A stretch of 64,000 bases of DNA, from positions 19,889-83,888 of the forward strand of contig JBOGDQ010000070.1 of the NCBI GenBank assembly GCA_050742975.1, read 5' to 3'. The stretch's first letter is position 1, and every line of letters starts with the position of its first letter. The notes below the pieces were generated by a model. That model did not search any database, was not told the DNA's origin, and saw only the letters and a list, made by a program, of their open reading frames with translations. The position numbers and the translations under genes are program-made. This document shows positions 5,640 through 14,361 of this stretch, piece by piece. Source of the stretch: Jatrophihabitantaceae bacterium. GTDB taxonomy: Bacteria > Actinomycetota > Actinomycetes > Mycobacteriales > Jatrophihabitantaceae.

Positions 5640-8600
5640 ATGGGCTGGCACAACCCCGACGTCACGTGGCGGGAACTGGAGCGGCGGCTGTCCGGCCGGC
5701 CGATCGAGGACCGCGGCCCGGTCTCGCGCAAGCGGGTACCACCACCAGCTCCGTCTACCCGCCGCCGAGTCAAGGCGCCACGCTATGCCGAACTGCATGC
5801 CCACTCGTCGTTCAGCCACCTGGACGGCGCGTCCACCCCGGAGGAGCTGGCCGCGGCCGCCGCCGAACTCGGCCTGTCCGCACTAGCGATCACCGACCAC
5901 GACGGCATGTACGGCGCGCCCCGGTTCGCCGCCGCCGCGGCACAGCAACAACCGCCGCTGCCGACGATCTTCGGCGCCGAGCTCTCCTGCGATCTCCTCC
6001 CACCCGTCACCACAACCGGCCGACTTGTCGGCGCCCGGTCCGCGATGCCCGACCCACCCGGCCGGCACCTGCTCGTGCTCGCCCGCGACCCGACTGGGTA
6101 CGCGAGCCTGTGCCGGGGCATCAGCCGGGCTCAACTGCGTGGCGGCGCCAAGGGTCACCCGGTCTACGACTGGGACGAGTTCGCCGATCTCGCCGACGGT
6201 CACTGGCTGGTGCTGACCGGCTGTCGCAAGGGCCCGGTGCGCCAAGCCCTCGACGTCGGTCAATACGGCACGTTCGCCCTCGATCCCGCCCGCCGGGCGC
6301 TGGCCGAGCTGGTCGACCGGTTCGGCCGCGACAACGTCGCGGTGGAGTTGACCTACGCCCGCGAGCCGCTGGCCGACGAGCGCTACGACGTGCTGGCCCA
6401 GCTGGCCGGCGAAGCCGGCCTGCCGATCGTGGCGACAACCGGCGCGCACTACCACACCCCGGCCCGCCGCCGGCTGGCCACCGCGCTGGCCGCGGTACGA
6501 GCACGCTGCAGCCTGGACGAGCTGGACGGCTGGCTGCCGGCCTGGGCCGACGCCCGGCTGCGGTCAGGAGCCGAGCTGGCCGAGCGATTCGCCCGCTGGC
6601 CCGGCGCGGTCGAGCACGCCGCCCGGCTGGGCGACGAACTCGCCTTCGACCTGCGACTGGTCGCCCCCAACCTGCCGCCGTTCCCCGTCCCGGGGGGATT
6701 CGCCGACGAGATGGCCTACCTGCGCCACCTCACCTACGCCGGTGCCGCCGAGCGGTACGGCACGCCGCTCGACGAGAAGGTCCGTGCTCGGCTCGAACAC
6801 GAGCTGGCTGTCATCGCCGACCGCGACTTTCCCGGCTACTTCCTCGTCGTCTGGGACATCACGAAGTTCTGCCGGGACAACGGCATCCTCTGCCAAGGCC
6901 GCGGCTCGGCGGCCGGCTCGGCAGTCTGCTACGCGCTGGAGGTCACCGCAATCGACCCGGTCGGCTTCGACCTGCTCTTCGAGCGCTTTCTCGCTCCCGA
7001 CCGTACCGAAGCCCCGGACATCGACATTGACATCGAGTCCGGGCAACCGCGAGAGGATGTCATCCAGTACGTCTACCGCAAGCACGGCCGGGAGTACGCC
7101 GCGCAGGTGGCGAACGCGATCACCTACCGCCCCAAGATCGCCGTCCGGGACATCGCCCGCGCGCTGGGCTACTCGCCGGGACAGCAGGACGCGTGGAGCA
7201 AGCAGATCGAGCAGGGTTACTGGACCGATGATGCCGCGCCGAGCACCGGCTGCCCGGACGGCGACATCCCTCCGCTCGTTCGCGAACTGGCCACCGAGCT
7301 GACGGTCACCGGCCAGCCGCGACACCTCGGCATCCACTCCGGTGGCATGGTCATCTGCGACCGGCCGATCATCGACGTCTGCCCGGTCGAGTGGGCCCGG
7401 ATGCCGGACCGCAGCGTGCTGCAGTGGGACAAGGACGACTGCGAGTACGCCGGGCTGGTGAAGTTCGACCTGCTCGGTCTCGGCATGCTCAGCGCGCTGC
7501 GGCAGTGTTTCGAGCTGATCGAGTCCTGGCACGGCGAGCACTACGAACTCGCCACGATCCCGAAGGAGCAGCCGTGTGTCTACGAGATCCTCGGCCGGGC
7601 AGACACCGTGGGGGTGTTCCAGGTCGAGTCCCGAGCCCAGATGCAGGCGCTGCCCCGGCTGCGCCCCAAGAAGTTCTACGAACTGGCGATTCAGGTCGCG
7701 ATGATCCGCCCCGGCCCCATCCAGGGTGGCGCGGTGCATCCGTACATCCGCCGTAAGAACAGCCAAGAAGACATCACCTACCCGCACCCACTGCTGAAAC
7801 CCGCGCTGGAGCGCACCCTCGGTGTGCCGCTGTTCCAGGAGCAGTTGATGGAGATCGCTGTCCACGGTGCCGGCTTCAGCCCGGCCGAGGCCGACCAACT
7901 GCGCCGGGCGATGGGCTCCAAGCGCGGCGTCGAACGCATCGACGCGATGGAGGCGCGGCTGTACGACGGCCTCGCCGACCATGGCATCACCGACGCGGTC
8001 GCCGGCGACATCGTCAACCGGGTCAAGGCCTTCGCCTCGTTCGGGTTCGCGGAGAGCCACGCACTGTCGTTCGCGCTACTCGTCTACGCCTCGGCCTGGC
8101 TGAAGCGGCACTACCCGGCCGCGTTCCTTGCCGCGTTGCTCAACTCCCAGCCGATGGGCTTCTACTCACCGCAGACGCTCGTGCACGACGCCAAGCGACA
8201 CGGCATCGAGGTGCATCGCCCCGACGTCAACCGCTCCGCCACGAGAGCGGCGCTGGAGACGGGCACCGGCTCGCGGCAGTGCGCCTGCGAGCACGGCAAC
8301 GTCATCCAACCTGCGGTACGTCTGGGGCTGTCCGGCGTGCGCACCGTCGACACCGAGGTCGCCGACCGGATCGTCGCCGAACGCGAGGCCCGCGGCCCGT
8401 TCACCTCGATCACCGACCTCGCCCGCCGCGCCGGGGTGTCCGGCGGACAGCTCGAGGCGCTGGCCACCGCAGGGGCGTTCGACGGCCTCGGCCTGCAGCG
8501 CCGGACCGCCCTGTGGATCGCAGGCGGCGCCGCCGACACCGGCCCCGACCAACTCGCCCTGTGTGCCGATCCGGACGTCCCGACGCTGACACCGATGACC

Positions 8601-9008
8601 GAACCCGAACAACTCATCGCCGACATGTGGGCCACGAGCATCACCCCTGACCGCTACCCCACCGCGCTCATCCGCGGCCGGCTCGACGCGCTCGGCGTCA
8701 CCGTCGCCGCGAGGCTGCGCGAGATCCCCGACCGCACCCGAGTCACCGTCGGCGGAGTGGTCACCCACCGACAGCGACCCTCCACCGCCGGCGGCGTCAC
8801 CTTCCTCAACTTGGAAGACGAAACCGGCATGGTCAACGTCATCTGCCCGTCCGCCGTGTGGGACCGGCACCGCCGAATTGCCCGCGACTCCGGCGGCCTG
8901 CTCATCCGTGGCCGGCTCGAACGCGCCGGCGACATCGCCAATGTCCTGGCCGAGCGGATCGCCAAGCTCCCGCTGGGCCTGCGCACCCGCTCCCGCGACT
9001 TCCGCTAG
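5640..9008 (+). CDS. dnaE2: error-prone DNA polymerase III alpha subunit DnaE2
   Basis: 1122 aa. PHP domain start YAELHAHSSFSHLDGAS and pol III alpha core motifs (GLVKFDLLGL, FQVESR), in imuB-dnaE2 synteny. Confidence 0.96.
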   Translation: MGWHNPDVTWRELERRLSGRPIEDRGPVSRKRVPPPAPSTRRRVKAPRYAELHAHSSFSHLDGASTPEELAAAAAELGLSALAITDHDGMYGAPRFAAAAAQQQPPLPTIFGAELSCDLLPPVTTTGRLVGARSAMPDPPGRHLLVLARDPTGYASLCRGISRAQLRGGAKGHPVYDWDEFADLADGHWLVLTGCRKGPVRQALDVGQYGTFALDPARRALAELVDRFGRDNVAVELTYAREPLADERYDVLAQLAGEAGLPIVATTGAHYHTPARRRLATALAAVRARCSLDELDGWLPAWADARLRSGAELAERFARWPGAVEHAARLGDELAFDLRLVAPNLPPFPVPGGFADEMAYLRHLTYAGAAERYGTPLDEKVRARLEHELAVIADRDFPGYFLVVWDITKFCRDNGILCQGRGSAAGSAVCYALEVTAIDPVGFDLLFERFLAPDRTEAPDIDIDIESGQPREDVIQYVYRKHGREYAAQVANAITYRPKIAVRDIARALGYSPGQQDAWSKQIEQGYWTDDAAPSTGCPDGDIPPLVRELATELTVTGQPRHLGIHSGGMVICDRPIIDVCPVEWARMPDRSVLQWDKDDCEYAGLVKFDLLGLGMLSALRQCFELIESWHGEHYELATIPKEQPCVYEILGRADTVGVFQVESRAQMQALPRLRPKKFYELAIQVAMIRPGPIQGGAVHPYIRRKNSQEDITYPHPLLKPALERTLGVPLFQEQLMEIAVHGAGFSPAEADQLRRAMGSKRGVERIDAMEARLYDGLADHGITDAVAGDIVNRVKAFASFGFAESHALSFALLVYASAWLKRHYPAAFLAALLNSQPMGFYSPQTLVHDAKRHGIEVHRPDVNRSATRAALETGTGSRQCACEHGNVIQPAVRLGLSGVRTVDTEVADRIVAEREARGPFTSITDLARRAGVSGGQLEALATAGAFDGLGLQRRTALWIAGGAADTGPDQLALCADPDVPTLTPMTEPEQLIADMWATSITPDRYPTALIRGRLDALGVTVAARLREIPDRTRVTVGGVVTHRQRPSTAGGVTFLNLEDETGMVNVICPSAVWDRHRRIARDSGGLLIRGRLERAGDIANVLAERIAKLPLGLRTRSRDFR

Positions 9009-9037: not shown

Positions 9038-9084
9038 CGTGGGCCCCGTGGGGCTCGAACCCACAACCTACGGATCAAAAGTCC
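9038..9084 (-). repeat. distal att-type repeat: displaced 3' portion of tRNA-Lys (partial, non-functional)
   Basis: Identical to 14287-14333 except 9076 C versus 14325 T. It lacks the 5' half of the tRNA. Confidence 0.88.
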
Positions 9085-9186
9085 TCGGGTCGGCCAGCAT
9101 CACCGCGCGCCAGACAGCCCAAACCCCTGTATTCATGGGACTCCCTCTGACTAGCGCATAGGTGCGTGTCGGTCGCTGTCGCTACC

Positions 9187-9208
9187 GAATGGGTGCCAAA
9201 TGGGTGCC
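9187..9208 (+). repeat. tandem (G/A)AATGGGTGCC 11-mers at the island edge
   Basis: GAATGGGTGCC followed by AAATGGGTGCC. The same motif recurs twice at 14183-14216, near the other island end. Confidence 0.7.
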
Positions 9209-9404
9209 GCGCTGGCGGCACTTCTGGTGTAGGAGCTGCACGGCACGGCTGACGCCTGCCGGGTCTCCGACGATCGAGGGGCCGCAGCTAGGCGGTCGCC
9301 CCATCCCAACGCGGGCGCTCGGCAACACCGACCATGCCGTCGGCATTACGCCGAAGGCGATCTCCATCTTGGTACCCCAGACTTTCCTCCTGGTCCGCGA
9401 ATCC

Positions 9405-10432
9405 TCAACGACGCCAAGGAAGTTCGGGCCGTCCGATGTCCAGGCTTGCTGGCAGGCTGCGGGCGCCACGTGCAGGCAGCGGCGCGGGGCGGGTCCGGCC
9501 GGCCTTGCGCAGCTGCCGGTAGCGCAACGGTTCGCCACCGACGGCCTGGCGTAGCAGCGTGCGGAACAGCAGGCCTCGGCTGCGTGAGTGGCGATGGTTG
9601 AAACGGAACACCCACTCGTCGAAATAGGGCTGCAGATGCTCGGCGCTGACCGAGCCTTGCACGGTGCCCATCAGCCACCGCTTGACCAGCGAGAAGATCC
9701 GATGCACCGCGGGTAGCACCTCGTGCGCGGCCAGCCCGGACGCGGCCACCGACGTTCCAAGGTGACGATAGTTCTCCCGCGTCGCAGCAGGGTAGGCCGA
9801 CCAGCCCTCGGTGATCACTCGCGAACCGGGCTCGACGTTGTCGGCCAAGAACCCGTTCAACTCCTGCGCGCTCGCGTCCGCGATGATCCCGAGACGCGCC
9901 CGGCCGAAGCCGCCCTCGTCGCGCTCCACGGCGCCAGCGAACAGCACTTTCCCTCGCGCTCCACGCCCAGGCATCCCCGCTCAGGGCCGCCGAGAAACGA
10001 CTCGTCGACCTCGACGTCACCGCGCAGCCGATCATGTCCTGGGCGCACCATCACCGACCGGTACCGGTGCAGCGTCGCCCACGCGGTCTGGTATGAGCCG
10101 AACTCCGTCTCCCGCTGCAACTGCATCGCCGAGATCCCGATCTTGTCGCCGACCATGCGTCACCCAGCAGCGAACCACACCGTCAGCGGCGTGCGCGTCT
10201 TGTCGAAGATCGTGCCCGTCGTGGCTGACACCTTCCGCTGGCAGCCGCCGCACTTGTTGTGTCCATCCGCGAGCCGCCAACCGACACCGCTGCCGCAGCC
10301 CGGGCAAACGAACCCATCGCGCCAGCGCAGCCACTCCAGGTAGTCGGTGCACTTCCCGTCCTCATCGAACCAGGCCCGCAGTTGCGCGTACGACCTCGGA
10401 TAGTCGCGCCCAGCAACGATCTTGGACCCCAC
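9405..10432 (-). pseudogene. IS1595-family transposase, inactivated (in-frame TGA plus frameshift)
   Basis: Three ORF pieces (10432-10160, 10156-9857, 9974-9405) together give a typical actinobacterial IS1595 transposase (zinc-ribbon CPGCG...CGGC, then VEVDESFLGG, DDE-type core, FVFRFNHRHSRSRGLLF). TGA lies at 10162-10160 where homologues have Trp. A frame change occurs near 9975. Confidence 0.85.
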
Positions 10433-10624
10433 CGAAGAAGGGTATCAATGGAGACCCCCTTTACGCCGATTAGGCGCCTGGATTAGCCGCTTTGTCTTGT
10501 CTGCAAGCTCGACGTTCTGCGCCGCACTCGCCCTCAGTCCCTTCGTTCCTCCCGGGTGCGCGCGCGGGTCCGGGCCACGCGTTCAGCTCCGCTTCGTAGC
10601 TCAGCCGCACAGAGCGTCGCTCTC

Positions 10625-11671
10625 ATGAGCCGGCCGGCGCTCGTTCAAGTGCACCCGAGGGCTACGGGGCCGAGCTACCCTCCGAGCGTGAGACCTGCGA
10701 CCGTGCCGGTACCTGCCCGCTGCGAACATCTGGCCTACGACGCGCGCGGGTTCCCGATCATCTCCGTCGTATCGAACAACGGCAGCGAGGTGAGCTTCGG
10801 TGCGATCTCGGAGAAACGCAAGCTGGTGTTGGCGACGTTCGACTTGTGCGCAGTCTGCGGCAAACCGTTCCGTGACGAGTTGCGTTGGCAGGTCGCCTTC
10901 GGCGACGAACTGCCTGCCCCCGACGATTCTCCGATCGGCTTCAACGAAGCTCCCGTACACGAGATCTGCGCTTTGCTCGCCGCGCAGGTGTGCCCGTTCG
11001 TCTCCTCCCCCTATGCGCGGCACGGCGACGAGTACCGCAAAGGGCAGCAACGCGAAAAGACGCTACTGCTGGCAGGGTTTGAGCACACCGCAGAGGTCTG
11101 GGGGCACGAATCGGCACTGCAACCGGGCGAGTGGATCCTCAGCTTCGCTATGGACAGGATTGGGCCGGTGCGCCAGCTCACTAGCGCCGAGGACGCGGCC
11201 CGGGCGTATCGCGACGCGCTTGCCGCCGAAGCGCCGCTGGTTCTCGACGACGACGAGCAAGCCATCCTGGACGTGCTCTGCTCCCCCACCCCGGACAACG
11301 AGGACTCCGGCGGCGTCCTGGCCGGTGCGGCCTGGATGATTGGCGCGGCGTTCTGCCCGGACATCGACAGAGTGCAGGGCATGTCCATCTACACCAAGCG
11401 TGATACCTATCTGGGGATAGCGATGGGCTCTCTCATCGAACCCGACAAGCTCGTCGCGTTCGAAAAATCGCGCGACCCGTCCACGGTGGCGGCGATGCGG
11501 TGGTTCCTCCATCACCGCGACCGCCTGCCACCAGTACTCGCCGAATGGAGGACCGCGGCGATGGACGGAATGCACGCCCGAGAGCGGGCGCGTAATCGCC
11601 GACCCGATCCGGCCACTGCGGCACGACGTCGCGCCGCGGAGGTAGCCCGACGCAGGAAGAAGCGCAGCTGA
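10625..11671 (+). CDS. hypothetical Cys-rich protein (348 aa), island cargo
   Basis: ORF with normal composition. It has a CAVCG...HEIC...CP cluster suggesting a Zn-binding N-terminal domain and a basic C-terminal tail. Start chosen at ATG 10625. Confidence 0.55.
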   Translation: MSRPALVQVHPRATGPSYPPSVRPATVPVPARCEHLAYDARGFPIISVVSNNGSEVSFGAISEKRKLVLATFDLCAVCGKPFRDELRWQVAFGDELPAPDDSPIGFNEAPVHEICALLAAQVCPFVSSPYARHGDEYRKGQQREKTLLLAGFEHTAEVWGHESALQPGEWILSFAMDRIGPVRQLTSAEDAARAYRDALAAEAPLVLDDDEQAILDVLCSPTPDNEDSGGVLAGAAWMIGAAFCPDIDRVQGMSIYTKRDTYLGIAMGSLIEPDKLVAFEKSRDPSTVAAMRWFLHHRDRLPPVLAEWRTAAMDGMHARERARNRRPDPATAARRRAAEVARRRKKRS

Positions 11672-11942
11672 CGCAGCACCGCCCGGGCCAGCCGCACTGT
11701 GCTCGAGCAAGGCTCGGTCTTGCCGTGCCGTGTACACAATCGTCCCATCTGCGCGATGGTTGGCGACCAGGACAGCGACGGCGAGCCACGCAGACGGCTC
11801 TGGCGTGTCTTCGATGCCCGGGACCTGACACCGATGCGGTATGGCATGTGATCATTTGCGCCTGACGGGGCGGGTTGGCATCGTTGACAGCGGCTGGTCG
11901 CGCTTGTGCGCTGGTGGCGTCTGCGTTGGCGGTGGGCGGCTA

Positions 11943-12803
11943 TCACTCAGTTCGGCGAGCTGCGACTGCGGTGAGTAGGTCGGCTGATAGTGCTGCGCTT
12001 GCCTGTGCGGCGATTTCGGGTTCGCCGACGCCCTGTTCGGTGCGCGCGGCCATCTGTGAGCCGAGCGCTTCGGCGCCGTCTGCGAACAGTTCTTGCAGGT
12101 AGGTGAGCGCTTGGGCTGTGATCTCGCCGGCCAGTTCGTCGTCGAGCAGGCGTATCAGGGTCTCGGCGAGTTGGTCGGTGCTAATGGCGACCAGCAAGCG
12201 GTAGATGTCGTGGGCGTCCTTGTCCAGCAGACGGTCTGGATTCGTGCGCCGCTCGGCGATCTTGTGGAGTTTCGCGATGAGCAGCGCGGCCGGTCCGGCG
12301 ACCTTGGCGGTGAGGTGGCGCTGATCGCGGGGCGACAATGCTGTGATCGGCATTTCGTGGTGGTCGACTACGGCGGCTTCCAGACCGACGGCGCGGCGCA
12401 TTGCCCGTTTGCCGTGTGGCGGATGGATCACGCTGCGTCGGCTATTTCCGCCGGCGATCGCTTCGGGGACCATCAGGTCGACCGGGATCCCGTTCGGGCT
12501 CATCCAGGCGCCCGGCTGCCCGGCGATCGGGTCGAGGAAGAACCCGGCGCGCTCCATCGCCGCGTCGATCAGCGGGTCTTGCCGTAGGGCTCGCACATCG
12601 ACGGCGAGGTCGCTGTCTTTGGTGGTTTCGGCGACGGCGATCGGTGCCGCGCCGGTGTGCAGGTACACGGCTTGGGCGCCGATGACGATAACGGAGTCGC
12701 GATGCTCGGCCAGGGCGGTGAGTGCGTCCAGCAGCACCGATCGGGCGCGTACGAACAGGTTGTCACTGTTGCCAGCGGTCAACGTTGGCCTCCATCCAGT
12801 CAA
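11943..12803 (-). CDS. nucleotidyltransferase-fold protein (AbiEii/GSU2403-like candidate toxin)
   Basis: N-terminal VIVIGAQAVYLH...TKDSDLAVD fits the NTase G[SA]-x(n)-DxD pattern. It lies immediately downstream of, and overlapping, an AbiEi-like gene. Confidence 0.65.
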   Translation of the reverse strand: MTGWRPTLTAGNSDNLFVRARSVLLDALTALAEHRDSVIVIGAQAVYLHTGAAPIAVAETTKDSDLAVDVRALRQDPLIDAAMERAGFFLDPIAGQPGAWMSPNGIPVDLMVPEAIAGGNSRRSVIHPPHGKRAMRRAVGLEAAVVDHHEMPITALSPRDQRHLTAKVAGPAALLIAKLHKIAERRTNPDRLLDKDAHDIYRLLVAISTDQLAETLIRLLDDELAGEITAQALTYLQELFADGAEALGSQMAARTEQGVGEPEIAAQASAALSADLLTAVAARRTE

Positions 12804-13881
12804 GAAGTGCCTCGCCTTCGGCCGGGTTACGTCCAGGGCCGGTGATCAGGTCGACGGCGGCCTGACTCGGCGCCACCGTCACGACCCCCTCGAGCGTGTC
12901 TGCGCGGTCATAGACCACCTCGTAGGCGGGCTGGGCCAGCAGCACGTTCCCTCCGCTGTCCACCGGTCGCAGATCTAGCTGGTTGGCGAGTTGCGCTGAG
13001 TCGTCGCAGTAGATCATCGCAGCTCGGGCCGGAGCGTAGGGCGCCCAGTTCTGAGCGGCCAACGAGCCGGTCACGGCGTAGCGCAGCCCATTCTGGTTGG
13101 GCAGTTCGGCTAGCCCGCTCGATAGGACCGGCAGTCCGCGCGGGGCCAGGAAGTTGGTGACGGCGTGGGTGCGGAGGAACCCGTAGTCCTGGGACCAGCG
13201 GCGCAATAACTCCACCCACCGCACCTGCTTGATCGGACCGCGGACGGCTCGCTCCAGCACGGCCTGTTCGGCGAGGAAGTCCACCACCCGGTAGGTCGGA
13301 CCGGTAGAGGCGCCGGACAACTCCACCAAGCGCGGCACGGAGTACGGCGGTGCGTAGTCGGCCAGCGCCCGCACCACCCGCGCCGCCGGCTCGCCGGTCA
13401 GATTGCCCTTCGGTCGTCCCGGCCCCCGCCACGGGTCCCTGGTTGCGCCCACGTCCCGCACGAACAGTGCCGGTCGATCCAGCGCTACGCGCAGATTTCC
13501 GGTCGCGTCACAGTAGGCGACGTTGCGCTCGGTCAGCCAGCGCTGCAGCGGCGTCGACAGGTATCGTGACGCGATCAGAGGCAGCGCGCCCGGTGTGCCG
13601 CGCCGTGCCGGGAAGGTCGCCGCGATGTAGCCATTGAGCTGCTCGAGCATGCCCGGAAGATCCCGGGTGACCAGGCTGCTCTTCACCTCGACAACCAACA
13701 CCGTAGCCGGACCCTGCGGCGGAACCAGAGAGAGGACTGCATCCGCACGTCGCCGGTCCATAGGCCCGTCGTACGGCTCCAGGCGCCACCCCTGCGGGAT
13801 CCGGGCCCGGATCTGCTCAAGCGCCGCGCCCAGGACATCCCGCTCACGCGACAGAGGTGCTGGCGCCGCGGCCACGTCCAT
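12763..13881 (-). CDS. AbiEi-like regulator/antitoxin with extra N-terminal PD-(D/E)xK-like segment
   Basis: 372 aa. ADAVLSL-x13-VVEVKSS resembles a D...ExK nuclease motif. The central segment looks like a winged HTH (EPAARVVRALADYAPPYSVPRLVELSGASTGPTYRVVDFL). The C-terminal part resembles AbiEi C-domains (recalled from memory, not searched). Confidence 0.55.
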   Translation of the reverse strand: MDVAAAPAPLSRERDVLGAALEQIRARIPQGWRLEPYDGPMDRRRADAVLSLVPPQGPATVLVVEVKSSLVTRDLPGMLEQLNGYIAATFPARRGTPGALPLIASRYLSTPLQRWLTERNVAYCDATGNLRVALDRPALFVRDVGATRDPWRGPGRPKGNLTGEPAARVVRALADYAPPYSVPRLVELSGASTGPTYRVVDFLAEQAVLERAVRGPIKQVRWVELLRRWSQDYGFLRTHAVTNFLAPRGLPVLSSGLAELPNQNGLRYAVTGSLAAQNWAPYAPARAAMIYCDDSAQLANQLDLRPVDSGGNVLLAQPAYEVVYDRADTLEGVVTVAPSQAAVDLITGPGRNPAEGEALLDWMEANVDRWQQ

Positions 13882-14182
13882 CGCAGATCCCCCTTGTCTC
13901 GTTCACCTACAGTCGTATTCCTGTAATGCTAACACTCCGTTGTCAGCGGAGGCTAGATATTCCCAGAAAATTGGACGGCAGATGACCGGGAGGGGGCCCC
14001 GGCACACGGTGACGAAAGGGTGCAGCCCGAGACGGCCGGCGTGTCGTGGTCCGAGCTCCGATCCGTCCAGGAGCTTCCTGCCGGCAGCCCGTCGGTTTGT
14101 CAGGCACAAGCGTCTGATCCGTCAAGCTGCGGAATTTGTCCGCAGAACATCTGCCCATCGACGCTTGCCGGGACACATCGAC

Positions 14183-14216
14183 AAATGGGTGCCAGACGAC
14201 GGAAATGGGTGCCAGA
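14183..14216 (+). repeat. two AAATGGGTGCCAGA 14-mers spaced 20 bp, tRNA-proximal island edge
   Basis: Copies at 14183-14196 and 14203-14216. They share the core with the repeats at 9187-9208. Confidence 0.7.
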
Positions 14217-14288
14217 AGCCGCTGCGTCGACCATGTCGTTGGCCGCGCAAAACCCGTTAATCACCTCGTATATAAGGGATTCATGCCG

Positions 14289-14361
14289 TGGGCCCCGTGG
14301 GGCTCGAACCCACAACCTACGGATTAAAAGTCCGCAGCTCTGCCAATTGAGCTAGAGGCCC
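14289..14361 (-). tRNA. tRNA-Lys (anticodon UUU)
   Basis: The reverse complement GGGCCTCTAGCTCAATTGGCAGAGCTGCGGACTTTTAATCCGTAGGTTGTGGGTTCGAGCCCCACGGGGCCCA folds as a cloverleaf with a 7-bp acceptor stem, anticodon loop CTTTTAA and T-loop GGTTCGAGCC. CCA is not encoded. Confidence 0.95.

What the first reader, a model, noticed from the sequence alone, without database searches (positions are those of the whole stretch)
11943..13881. Atypical AbiE-like pair: PD-(D/E)xK-like/wHTH/AbiEi-like protein plus nucleotidyltransferase
The two minus-strand ORFs overlap by 41 nt. The downstream one has the NTase G[SA]..(n)..DxD signature (IGAQAV...TKDSDLAVD), like AbiEii/GSU2403-type toxins. The upstream one, at 372 aa, is larger than the AbiEi antitoxins I recall. 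It starts with a D-x13-ExK arrangement (ADAVLSL...VVEVKSS) suggestive of a restriction-endonuclease-like fold, ahead of the wHTH and AbiEi-like C-domain. A nuclease-like domain fused to the antitoxin/regulator would be an undescribed variant of type IV TA / abortive-infection modules. The tRNA-island location fits a defence role.
Basis: partly seen in the sequence, partly recalled or inferred. Interest (0 to 1): 0.7.

Follow-up and report, generated by a model that had tools for sequence, protein, structure and literature searches.

The report
Divergent AbiE-type toxin–antitoxin gene pair

Summary
Both minus-strand genes are real: A (12763-13881, 372 aa) and T (11943-12782, 279 aa from the likely TTG start). 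Each has thousands of homologues. T follows A, overlapping it, in 75 of 80 species-representative genomes.

T is a pol-beta-fold nucleotidyltransferase. Its G42, D63xD65, D109 and K178/K181/R185 are about 100% conserved, and it carries the MenT-type T61-K-D63 phospho-acceptor pattern.

A has three domains:
- An N-terminal alpha-beta-beta-beta-alpha-beta domain with E13, D47 and E65-x-K67. Weak but convergent fold and profile hits point to NucS/EndoMS, Mrr and UL24, all PD-(D/E)xK nucleases.
- A central winged helix-turn-helix.
- A C-terminal AbiEi_2 (PF09952) domain.

The "undescribed variant" reading does not. The same three-domain protein of about 355-370 aa, with the motif intact, occurs in plasmid and ICE proteins that NCBI already labels "AbiEi family antitoxin", next to "AbiEii toxin" genes (Bosea, Mesorhizobium, Klebsiella). 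That is the COG4861-COG4849 branch, to which M. tuberculosis MenA2-MenT2 is assigned in the literature.

What is new is modest. This actinobacterial clade is missed by the Pfam, NCBIfam and PADLOC models, and I found no paper describing the N-domain's fold. The pair sits in a 5.25-kb degraded island at tRNA-Lys.

The parts
12763..13881 (-). Gene A: 372-aa three-domain AbiEi_2/COG4861-type regulator and putative antitoxin
   Evidence: ORF. 100% identical to the NCBI MAG Mycobacterium sp. 'hypothetical protein' P0001, with 1737 homologues. AF2 mean pLDDT 93. hhalign to a PGAP-labelled AbiEi gives 98.8%.
13432..13881 (-). A residues 1-150: PD-(D/E)xK-like (NucS_C-like) domain with E13, D47, E65-x-K67. 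R106/Y107 and D125/G128/N129 are invariant or nearly so.
   Evidence: Secondary structure is a13-27, b33-36, b48-53, b60-67, a72-89, b99-105, a110-118, b122-125. Foldseek hits NucS/EndoMS 5gke and 2vld at probability 0.80-0.95, and UL24, Mrr and endonucleases in BFVD. Weak Pfam hits go to NucS_C (E 0.0017), PDDEXK_13, Mrr_cat, Herpes_UL24 and MmcB-like. The profile against PDB hits NucS 2vld at E 0.19 with ExK aligned. Conservation.
13240..13404 (-). A residues about 160-214: winged helix-turn-helix
   Evidence: H164-175, H182-189, H193-205, then strands 209-211 and 217-220. HTH_IclR and MarR_2 hits in homologues; the window protein itself reaches only E 0.18. Foldseek hits to MarR, IclR and CRP wHTH domains.
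12766..13239 (-). A residues 215-372: AbiEi_2 (PF09952) C-terminal domain, the presumed toxin-neutralising part, with an NTase-like fold and a conserved T271-G272-S273
   Evidence: Homologues 53-60% identical pass the PF09952 gathering score at residues about 211-379. The top Foldseek hits are MenT1 8an4/8an5 and TM1012 2ewr, 146-159 columns, probability 0.98-1.0. T271/G272/N312/Q340/D344 are conserved, while D293/D294 are degenerate.
11943..12782 (-). Gene T: 279-aa pol-beta-fold nucleotidyltransferase, the putative toxin. The mechanical ORF extends to the TTG at 12803.
   Evidence: ORF; start argued. 2576 homologues. AF2 pLDDT 92, pTM 0.90. Foldseek hits JHP933 4ok0 (E 4e-4), ANT(2'')-Ia, MenT1 and CCA-adding enzymes. 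Homologues pass PF12281. hhalign to the Bosea AbiEii gives E 2.9e-5 over 212 columns. Catalytic residues are about 100% conserved.
12763..12793 (-). Overlap and translational-coupling region: GGAGG (12793-12789), 6-nt spacer, TTG start of T (12782-12780), stop codon of A (12765-12763)
   Evidence: Read directly from the sequence. The overlapping arrangement recurs in most of 75 related loci.
13882..14287 (-). Non-coding leader between tRNA-Lys and A. It holds the Shine-Dalgarno AAGGGGGA (13895-13888) and a 19-nt tandem direct repeat (14183-14201 and 14203-14221). No convincing operator palindrome.
   Evidence: Sequence; repeats. No sigma-70-like promoter was found. No inverted repeat of 8 or more matched pairs.
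14288..14361 (-). tRNA-Lys(TTT), the integration site and right border of the island
   Evidence: ARAGORN
9038..9096 (-). Partial copy of the 3' part of tRNA-Lys (92% over 59 nt, 38 nt identical), the left border of the 5.25-kb island

Best explanation
This is a two-gene, translationally coupled toxin-antitoxin / abortive-infection module of the AbiE/MenAT class, on the COG4861 (AbiEi_2) plus NTase branch. It is carried on a small degraded island integrated at tRNA-Lys.

**Shown here**
- Gene order, overlap and a ribosome-binding site for T inside the end of A.
- Strict co-occurrence of the two genes.
- T has an intact pol-beta nucleotidyltransferase active site.
- A is homologous over its full length to proteins already annotated as AbiEi antitoxins.
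- A has three domains: NucS-like PD-(D/E)xK fold, wHTH, and AbiEi_2 domain.

**Inferred from characterised relatives (MenT1/MenT3/AbiEii)**
- Free T adds nucleotides to tRNA 3' acceptor ends, stops translation and arrests growth. On phage attack this aborts the infection.
- A keeps T off through its C-terminal domain, by binding T and/or provoking T to phosphorylate itself on T61. T61 is the invariant Thr two residues before catalytic D63, matching T39-R40-D41 of MenT1.
- The wHTH of A represses the operon.

**The N-terminal domain**
This nuclease-fold domain is an ancestral part of all COG4861-type antitoxins. Its acidic residues are kept over very large distances, so it probably still binds metal and DNA. 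About a third of close homologues deviate at one or more of the four motif positions, mostly K67 to R or changes at E13. About 8% lack an acidic residue at position 65 while keeping an intact T partner. I therefore think it more likely acts as a DNA-binding or sensing module than as an obligatory cutting enzyme.
For: - **Genes and overlap:**
- **Pairing:** T lies directly downstream of A in 75 of 80 GTDB loci, usually overlapping. Pairs also occur on Rhodococcus and Streptomyces plasmids.
- **Family assignment of A:** homologues pass PF09952. hhalign gives 98.8% to the PGAP-labelled AbiEi of Mesorhizobium. BLASTP to the Bosea AbiEi gives 1e-15. PF09952 equals COG4861 (PMC7251935). COG4861 is paired with COG4849 NTases (PMC3985639).
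- **Family assignment of T:** homologues pass PF12281. hhalign to an AbiEii gives E 2.9e-5. Foldseek hits JHP933, MenT1 and ANT(2'').
- **Active-site and phospho-site conservation:**; MenT1 T39/D41/K137 from PMC11375011.
- **N-domain fold:**. Motif conservation.
- **Defence or mobile context of relatives:** CBASS type III plus integrase; type I R-M plus GmrSD; restriction endonuclease; DNA methylase; Klebsiella ICE genes; RES toxin.
- **Island in the window:**
Against: - No function was tested.
- The window proteins themselves hit no Pfam, NCBIfam or PADLOC model at threshold. Membership rests on homologues and profile comparisons.
- The only studied COG4861-type pair, MenA2-MenT2, showed no toxicity in M. 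smegmatis or E. coli (PMC7450476), so toxicity of this branch is unproven.
- T fits PF12281 better than the AbiEii model PF08843 (best E 0.031 in one homologue). The hhalign probability to an AbiEii is only 74%.
- No operator-like inverted repeat lies upstream of A.
- Five of 80 loci carry A without T.
- All fold matches for the N-domain are weak (Foldseek E 0.04-0.07; Pfam below threshold). The tool does not report which residues were aligned.
Confidence: 0.7

Rival explanations
1. Two-effector or sensor model. The N-terminal NucS-like domain of A is an active nuclease, or a DNA-structure sensor whose engagement with phage DNA releases T. A would then be a bifunctional defence protein rather than a mere antitoxin.
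For: The window protein has all four motif residues (E13, D47, E65, K67). E13, D47 and E65 are invariant in nine sequences at 20-44% identity spanning Actinomycetota and Alpha-, Beta- and Gammaproteobacteria. The closest fold and profile matches are true nucleases: NucS/EndoMS, Mrr, UL24. Relatives sit in defence islands.
Against: Only 67% of 204 close homologues keep the full E-D-E-K. K67 is R in 13%. E65 is A, Q, G or K in about 8%, including loci with an intact T. That is far weaker than the roughly 100% conservation of T's catalytic residues. The strictly invariant residues of the domain (D125, G128, N129, Y107) lie outside the classical motif. No activity data exist.
Confidence: 0.2
2. 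Not a toxin-antitoxin system. T is a benign nucleotidyltransferase, for example a small-molecule or antibiotic adenylyltransferase like ANT(2''), or a non-toxic tRNA or protein modifier. A is simply its transcription factor.
For: The best TM-scores for T are to ANT(2'')-Ia (TMt 0.56-0.58). MenT2 of the same branch was not toxic. Some loci lie among housekeeping genes.
Against: Full-length homology of A to AbiEi-annotated proteins paired with AbiEii. T keeps the AbiEii-type motif IV (K178..K181..R185) and the T-K-D phospho-site pattern. Relatives recur on mobile elements and in defence islands. The tight overlap of the genes is typical of TA operons.
Confidence: 0.1
3. The D...ExK is a chance motif, and the N-terminal segment is just an unrelated alpha/beta dimerisation or DNA-binding domain without endonuclease ancestry.
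For: No Pfam PD-(D/E)xK model reaches threshold. Foldseek E-values are 0.04 or worse. The top sequence-profile PDB hit for the N-domain is an unrelated receiver domain (3grc, E 0.084).
Against: The strand and helix order and the motif placement match the fold exactly. Five of the 16 weakly hit Pfam families belong to the PD-(D/E)xK superfamily (by their Pfam names and my knowledge of that clan). Independent structure libraries return NucS, UL24 and Mrr. HMMER aligns E65-x-K67 onto the ELK motif of P. abyssi NucS, which I recall as its catalytic E174/K176 (memory, not checked here). The motif persists at 20% identity.
Confidence: 0.08

Closest known systems
COG4861 (Pfam AbiEi_2, PF09952) / COG4849-type AbiEii pairs on proteobacterial plasmids and ICEs, e.g. 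Bosea vaviloviae WP_069694266.1 + WP_083269956.1, Mesorhizobium WP_258597328.1 + WP_258597330.1, Klebsiella pneumoniae WP_004150897.1 + WP_004227625.1
   Same: The same three-domain upstream protein of about 355-370 aa, with E/D/ExK and the D..GN motif, a wHTH and an AbiEi_2 C-domain. An NTase of about 230-310 aa lies immediately downstream, often overlapping. They sit on mobile elements.
   Different: Only 20-27% identity to A. Their NTases pass PF08843/AbiEii, whereas this clade's NTases fit PF12281. PGAP names them AbiEi/AbiEii, while the actinobacterial clade is 'hypothetical' or 'helix-turn-helix domain-containing'.
MenA2-MenT2 (Rv0837c-Rv0836c) of Mycobacterium tuberculosis
   Same: A mycobacterial COG4861 gene upstream of an NTase-like toxin gene, with the antitoxin 'much larger' than the toxin (PMC3968373; PMC7450476).
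   Different: I could not retrieve these sequences, so identity and orthology are untested. MenT2 is classed as DUF1814 and showed no toxicity in M. smegmatis or E. coli. From memory (unverified), MenT2 is shorter, at about 217 aa.
AbiEi-AbiEii of Streptococcus agalactiae / Lactococcus, and MenA3-MenT3 and MenA4-MenT4 (COG5340-COG2253)
   Same: A bicistronic operon with a wHTH antitoxin followed by a pol-beta NTase toxin with motifs I-IV. The toxin is controlled by the antitoxin C-domain and by auto-phosphorylation of a Ser/Thr next to the catalytic Asp (PMC3985639; PMC11375011; bioRxiv 10.64898/2026.01.19.700257).
   Different: COG5340 antitoxins are two-domain proteins with the wHTH at the N-terminus and no nuclease-like domain. 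No AbiEi_1/3/4 Pfam model hits A or its homologues. PADLOC AbiE models do not detect this pair.
NucS/EndoMS C-terminal RecB-like nuclease domain (PDB 2VLD, 5GKE; Pfam NucS_C)
   Same: The best fold and profile match for A residues of roughly 10-125. The E-x-K of beta3 and the following helix and strand align.
   Different: Similarity is below family thresholds. A lacks the NucS N-terminal DNA-binding domain. A has its own invariant Y-x-D-x-x-G-N motif. The K position is variable.
JHP933 (4OK0), MenT1 (8AN4/8RR5) and ANT(2'')-Ia (5CFS) nucleotidyltransferases
   Same: The fold of T. MenT1's T39-R40-D41 corresponds to T61-K62-D63 of T.
   Different: 11-18% identity. G42 is 20 residues before D63, longer than the spacing of 15 that Dy et al. 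give for AbiEii. T has a larger helical C-terminal half.

Membership tests
AbiE/MenAT class, COG4861 (AbiEi_2)-NTase branch | Bicistronic operon: regulator/antitoxin gene first, NTase gene immediately downstream or overlapping | tested here: met
   (20-nt overlap, SD for T inside A). 75 of 80 related loci share the arrangement.
AbiE/MenAT class, COG4861 (AbiEi_2)-NTase branch | Upstream protein carries the AbiEi_2 (PF09952) C-terminal domain | tested here: met
   The window protein itself has no Pfam hit. Homologues 53-60% identical pass the gathering score (26-32 bits against 21). The family profile aligns full-length with a PGAP-annotated AbiEi at 98.8% probability.
AbiE/MenAT class, COG4861 (AbiEi_2)-NTase branch | Upstream protein has a winged helix-turn-helix | tested here: met
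   AF2 secondary structure 164-220. HTH_IclR and MarR_2 hits above or near threshold in homologues. Foldseek hits MarR, IclR and CRP. The window protein alone reaches E 0.18.
AbiE/MenAT class, COG4861 (AbiEi_2)-NTase branch | Downstream protein is a DUF1814/AbiEii (PF08843) NTase with motifs I-IV | tested here: inconclusive
   Motifs are present and about 100% conserved: G42; D63xD65; D109; K178-x2-K181-x3-R185. PF08843 reaches only E 0.031 in one homologue. Homologues pass PF12281 instead. hhalign to the Bosea AbiEii gives 73.6%, E 2.9e-5. The top Foldseek hit is JHP933 (4ok0), which I recall as a DUF1814 protein.
AbiE/MenAT class, COG4861 (AbiEi_2)-NTase branch | Ser/Thr phospho-acceptor two residues before the first catalytic Asp | tested here: met
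   T61-K62-D63, with T61 in 185 of 187 homologues. This matches MenT1 T39-R40-D41 (PMC11375011). Phosphorylation itself was not tested.
AbiE/MenAT class, COG4861 (AbiEi_2)-NTase branch | NTase is growth-inhibitory and is neutralised by the upstream protein; the pair confers phage resistance or plasmid stabilisation | not testable with these tools
   This needs expression and phage assays. MenT2 of the same branch was non-toxic.
AbiE/MenAT class, COG4861 (AbiEi_2)-NTase branch | Autorepression through inverted repeats in the promoter | tested here: inconclusive
   No inverted repeat of 8 or more matched pairs lies in the 220 nt upstream of A. Only some relatives have one, e.g. an 18-bp repeat in L002.
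Canonical AbiEi (COG5340; Pfam AbiEi_1, AbiEi_3, AbiEi_3_N, AbiEi_4) | Match to a COG5340-type AbiEi model; two-domain protein with the wHTH at the N-terminus | tested here: not met
   No such Pfam hit for A or nine homologues and relatives. The wHTH is the middle domain.
PD-(D/E)xK nuclease superfamily (N-domain of A) | alpha-beta-beta-beta-alpha-beta core with Asp at the start of beta2 and (D/E)xK in beta3 | tested here: met
   AF2 model, pLDDT mostly above 90: a13-27, b33-36, b48-53 (D47), b60-67 (E65, K67), a72-89, b99-105.
PD-(D/E)xK nuclease superfamily (N-domain of A) | Significant structural or profile similarity to established members | tested here: inconclusive
   Foldseek hits NucS/EndoMS at E 0.04-0.07, probability 0.80-0.95, and UL24, Mrr and endonucleases at E 0.06-0.14. 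Pfam NucS_C reaches E 0.0017 in 2 of 46 members, with single hits to PDDEXK_13, Mrr_cat, Herpes_UL24 and MmcB-like. PDB NucS reaches E 0.19. The evidence is convergent but all below the usual thresholds.
PD-(D/E)xK nuclease superfamily (N-domain of A) | Catalytic residues conserved across the family | tested here: inconclusive
   E13 84%, D47 94%, E65 89%, K67 85% (R 13%). The full motif is kept in 67% of 204 homologues. E13, D47 and E65 are invariant in nine very distant sequences, while K varies.
PD-(D/E)xK nuclease superfamily (N-domain of A) | Metal-dependent nuclease activity | not testable with these tools
   Biochemistry is needed.
   No PADLOC hit for A, T or their homologues. No NCBIfam hit.

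The most novel reading that the evidence does not exclude
The N-terminal NucS-like PD-(D/E)xK domain, kept with invariant E/D/E over the whole COG4861 class, may be a working nuclease or a DNA-lesion/phage-DNA sensor. The AbiEi_2 C-domain may be a dead NTase paralogue that holds the active NTase in check. COG4861-type 'antitoxins' would then be bifunctional sensor-effector proteins that couple recognition of invading DNA to release of a tRNA-modifying toxin. This mechanism has not been described for any AbiE/MenAT system.
Probability: 0.15. Interest if true: 0.65.

Novelty: new member of a known kind. Interest (0 to 1): 0.33.

Why it matters
This finding rescues a large, unannotated actinobacterial clade and places it in the AbiE/MenAT toxin-antitoxin/defence class. 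The clade has more than 1700 relatives of A at 90% clustering, and relatives in 377 stretches of the species-representative genome set. Public records call its members 'hypothetical' or 'HTH domain' proteins, and the Pfam, NCBIfam and PADLOC models miss them.

It also points out that the COG4861-type antitoxins contain a nuclease-fold domain and an NTase-like C-domain. This class is assigned in the literature to the poorly understood M. tuberculosis MenA2. I found no paper discussing these two domains. They could explain why MenAT2 behaves differently from the other MenAT systems, and they give concrete residues to mutate.

As a discovery it is incremental. The architecture already exists under an AbiEi label in the databases.

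Tried and rejected
- **Direct model searches.** Pfam, NCBIfam and PADLOC searches with the window proteins gave nothing at threshold. Sequence-profile searches against PDB gave only noise for full-length A and nothing for T.
- **Operator search.** The leader of A has no strong inverted repeat, and related loci share none. No sigma-70-like promoter was found.
- **A's C-domain as a paralogue of T.** hhalign probability was 2%. The NTase-like fold of that domain therefore rests on Foldseek alone.
- **The neighbouring 371-aa ORF (10556-11671) as a third component.** It has no Pfam, NCBIfam or PADLOC hit. Among the 90 loci fetched it occurs only on a second contig (L086, NCBI assembly GCA_050701555.1) that carries an identical A gene. 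I rejected it as part of the system.
- **Phage origin.** tblastn of A against 50,697 phage records found nothing.
- **N-domain in other architectures.** phmmer of residues 1-150 against 1.84 billion representatives gave 420 clusters. In the 150 best hits listed, the domain lies at or near the N-terminus, in proteins of about 360-375 aa or in shorter, probably truncated ones. I saw no clear alternative architecture.
- **M. tuberculosis Rv0837c/Rv0836c.** I could not obtain these sequences with the available collections, so the direct comparison is missing.
- **Literature on a nuclease domain in AbiEi or COG4861 proteins.** Nothing relevant turned up in the searchable library. That is not proof of absence.
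Full report
**1. The observation**

The window has two minus-strand ORFs: 12763-13881 (372 aa, here A) and 11943-12803 (286 aa from a TTG, here T). Mechanically they overlap by 41 nt. Both are real genes.
- A is 100% identical to an NCBI 'hypothetical protein' from a Mycobacterium sp. MAG. It has 1737 scored homologues, nearly all 360-375 aa.
- T has 2576 homologues of about 275 aa.

The likely start of T is the second TTG, at 12782. GGAGG precedes it at 12793-12789 with a 6-nt spacer. This start yields the 279-aa product that NCBI calls and matches the N-termini of homologues. The first 11 residues of the longer form have pLDDT below 50. The biological overlap is therefore 20 nt, with T's ribosome-binding site inside the end of A. 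That is a classic translationally coupled pair.

**2. The downstream protein T**

AlphaFold2 with 61 homologues gives pLDDT 92 and pTM 0.90. Foldseek against PDB returns nucleotidyltransferases:
- H. pylori JHP933 (4ok0, E 4e-4)
- ANT(2'')-Ia
- MenT1
- viral poly(A) polymerases
- CCA-adding enzymes

In 187 homologues the following residues are 98-100% conserved: G42, D63, D65, D109, K178, K181, R185, K195, D199 and R202. They correspond to pol-beta motifs I-III and the extra AbiEii-type motif IV described by Dy et al. (PMC3985639).

The window protein itself only grazes Pfam PF12281 (E 0.059). Several homologues pass that model's threshold, and one also touches PF08843/AbiEii at E 0.031. Against a Bosea plasmid protein annotated 'AbiEii/AbiGii toxin', the T family profile aligns over 212 columns, including the G and DxD motifs (E 2.9e-5, probability 74%).

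T61-K62-D63 reproduces the T39-R40-D41 arrangement of MenT1. In MenT1, T39 is the antitoxin-induced auto-phosphorylation site and D41 binds Mg (PMC11375011). T61 is present in 185 of 187 homologues.

**3. The upstream protein A**

AlphaFold2 with 63 homologues gives pLDDT 93 and three domains.

(i) Residues of roughly 10-145 have the order alpha(13-27), beta(33-36), beta(48-53), beta(60-67), alpha(72-89), beta(99-105), alpha(110-118), beta(122-125). D47 opens beta2 and E65-x-K67 lies in beta3. This is the textbook PD-(D/E)xK layout, with a conserved Glu (E13) in the first helix.

(ii) Residues of roughly 160-214 form a winged helix-turn-helix. Homologues hit HTH_IclR and MarR_2. Foldseek returns MarR, IclR and CRP domains.

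(iii) Residues 215-372 are the AbiEi_2 domain. Homologues 53-60% identical to A pass PF09952 at 26-32 bits against a cut-off of 21.

**4. Is the N-domain really nuclease-like?**

Several weak lines of evidence agree.
- Foldseek against PDB lists EndoMS/NucS (5gke_A, probability 0.95; 2vld, 0.80) over 100-105 columns.
- Foldseek against BFVD lists herpesvirus UL24, an Mrr-domain protein and phage endonucleases.
- Scanning 46 isolated N-domains against Pfam gave 16 weakly hit families. Five are PD-(D/E)xK families: NucS_C (two members, best E 0.0017), PDDEXK_13, Mrr_cat, Herpes_UL24 and MmcB-like.
- A profile of the N-domain hits P. abyssi NucS in PDB (E 0.19), with E65-x-K67 aligned on the 'ELK' of NucS.

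None of these alone reaches a family threshold, and the fold tool does not show which residues were aligned. I therefore rate the fold as well supported, but not membership of any named nuclease family.

Conservation in 204 homologues is E13 84%, D47 94%, E65 89% and K67 85% (plus 13% R). The full E-D-E-K is kept in 67%. In several loci E65 is A, Q or G while an intact T gene follows. The strictly invariant residues are elsewhere: D125 and G128, with N129 in 203 of 204 and Y107 in 202 of 204. Across nine sequences at only 20-44% identity (Actinomycetota and three proteobacterial classes), E13, D47 and E65 are invariant, while K67 becomes R, L or T.

My reading is that a metal- and DNA-binding site is ancestral and usually kept, but cleavage is probably not the indispensable function in every member.

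**5. Is the architecture new? No.**

tblastn of A against plasmids finds Rhodococcus (43%) and Streptomyces (about 31%) homologues annotated only as 'helix-turn-helix domain-containing' or 'hypothetical'. It also finds distant proteobacterial hits covering A from residue 13-15 onward that PGAP names 'type IV toxin-antitoxin system AbiEi family antitoxin'.

In Bosea and Mesorhizobium these are 358- and 354-aa proteins. A 288-289-aa 'AbiEii/AbiGii toxin family' gene follows and overlaps by 13 nt. They pass PF09952, and their partners pass PF08843.
- BLASTP of A against the Bosea protein gives 1e-15 over residues 49-364, aligning VVEVKSS with LACEVKSV and YCDATGN with YLDFVGN.
- The A family profile aligns with the Mesorhizobium protein over columns 20-357 at 98.8% probability.
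- The Bosea protein has full-length relatives in 101 plasmid records, 80 of them with 80% or more coverage. One is a Klebsiella pneumoniae copy among integrative-conjugative-element genes.

PF09952 corresponds to COG4861 (PMC7251935). Dy et al. linked COG4861 to COG4849 NTases as a second AbiE-type pair. In M. tuberculosis this is Rv0837c-Rv0836c, or MenA2-MenT2. [quoted passage not shown]

The nuclease-fold domain is therefore standard for this catalogued subtype. I found no paper describing that domain. PADLOC has no model that recognises COG4861-type antitoxins, even in the annotated proteobacterial examples.

**6. Pairing and context**

In 80 species-representative genomes, mostly Actinomycetota (Micromonospora, Solirubrobacterales, Pseudonocardiaceae, Acidimicrobiia), T lies directly after A in 75, usually overlapping its end. 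Five have A alone.

Neighbourhoods of relatives often hold defence or mobile genes:
- a type III CBASS operon plus integrase
- type I R-M plus GmrSD
- a restriction endonuclease
- a DNA methylase
- a RES toxin
- ICE genes

Others are unremarkable. No homologue was found in 50,697 phage records.

In the window, the pair lies in a 5.25-kb insert bounded by tRNA-Lys(TTT) (14288-14361) and a 59-nt partial copy of its 3' part (9038-9096). On one side is a DnaE2-like polymerase gene. On the other are MerR, SDR and QueA genes.

The insert also holds two fragments of an IS1595-family transposase and an orphan 371-aa ORF. No integrase was seen among its ORFs, so it looks like a decayed integrated element.

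**7. Mechanism**

The following is shown here: operon structure, coupling, intact NTase site, domain composition, family relationships and co-occurrence.

The following is inferred by homology with MenT1/MenT3/AbiEii:
- T modifies tRNA 3' ends and blocks translation.
- A's C-domain neutralises T by binding and/or induced auto-phosphorylation at T61.
- A's wHTH autoregulates the operon.

The role of the N-domain is not known. I favour DNA binding or sensing over obligatory cleavage, for the conservation reasons given above. Whether this branch is toxic at all is also open, given MenT2.

**8. Verdict**

The pair is a divergent, unannotated member of a known AbiE subtype, not a new variant created by domain fusion. 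Interest is moderate to low. The useful residue is the annotation of a big actinobacterial clade and a testable hypothesis about the nuclease-fold and NTase-like domains of COG4861 antitoxins.

Noticed in passing
window 12766-13239 (A residues 215-372): The AbiEi_2 C-domain of the putative antitoxin gives its best structural matches to the toxin-type NTases MenT1 (8an4/8an5) and TM1012 (146-159 columns, probability 0.98-1.0). It keeps a T271-G272-S273 'hG[GS]'-like motif. The usual carboxylates are degenerate (D293/D294 variable, invariant N312 instead), so it may be a dead NTase paralogue. hhalign finds no sequence-level relation to T (probability 2%).
   Followed up: partly
window 9038-14287: A 5.25-kb insert lies between a partial tRNA-Lys copy and the intact tRNA-Lys(TTT). 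No integrase was seen among its ORFs. It holds a split IS1595-family transposase (zinc ribbon 10160-10432, DDE 9405-9974, both minus strand) and an orphan 371-aa ORF (10556-11671, plus strand). That ORF has no family hit and no counterpart next to other A/T pairs.
   Followed up: partly
window 14183-14221: Two tandem 19-nt direct repeats (AAATGGGTGCCAGACGACG and AAATGGGTGCCAGAAGCCG, spaced 20 nt) lie 66-104 nt from the tRNA 3' end and about 300 nt upstream of A. They could be arm-type recombinase sites left from the element, or a regulator site.
   Followed up: no
L055, L057, L058, L059, L069 (A at about 6001-7100 in most): Five of 80 related genomes carry the A gene without a recognisable T gene. 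In L057 the next long ORF downstream is unrelated and on the opposite strand. These may be orphan regulators/antitoxins or decayed modules.
   Followed up: partly
L084 3992-9915: A 62%-identical A/T pair sits directly after a complete-looking type III CBASS operon (AAA+/Trip13-like, Cap8, bacterial HORMA, SMODS cyclase, S_4TM effector). A phage-type integrase and a Gp49/HTH pair lie within 7 kb.
   Followed up: no
L091 2501-4451 (Klebsiella pneumoniae plasmid NZ_CP129771.1): A COG4861-type AbiEi/AbiEii pair lies among integrative-conjugative-element genes in a clinical K. pneumoniae replicon. Here the two genes are separated by 163 nt rather than overlapping, and the NTase is shorter (233 aa).
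   Followed up: no
window 5640-9008: A 1122-aa DNA polymerase III alpha-type protein (PHP, pol3 alpha, finger and HHH domains) ends 30 nt before the island's left repeat. Its size and layout look like the error-prone DnaE2 (from memory, not tested).
   Followed up: partly
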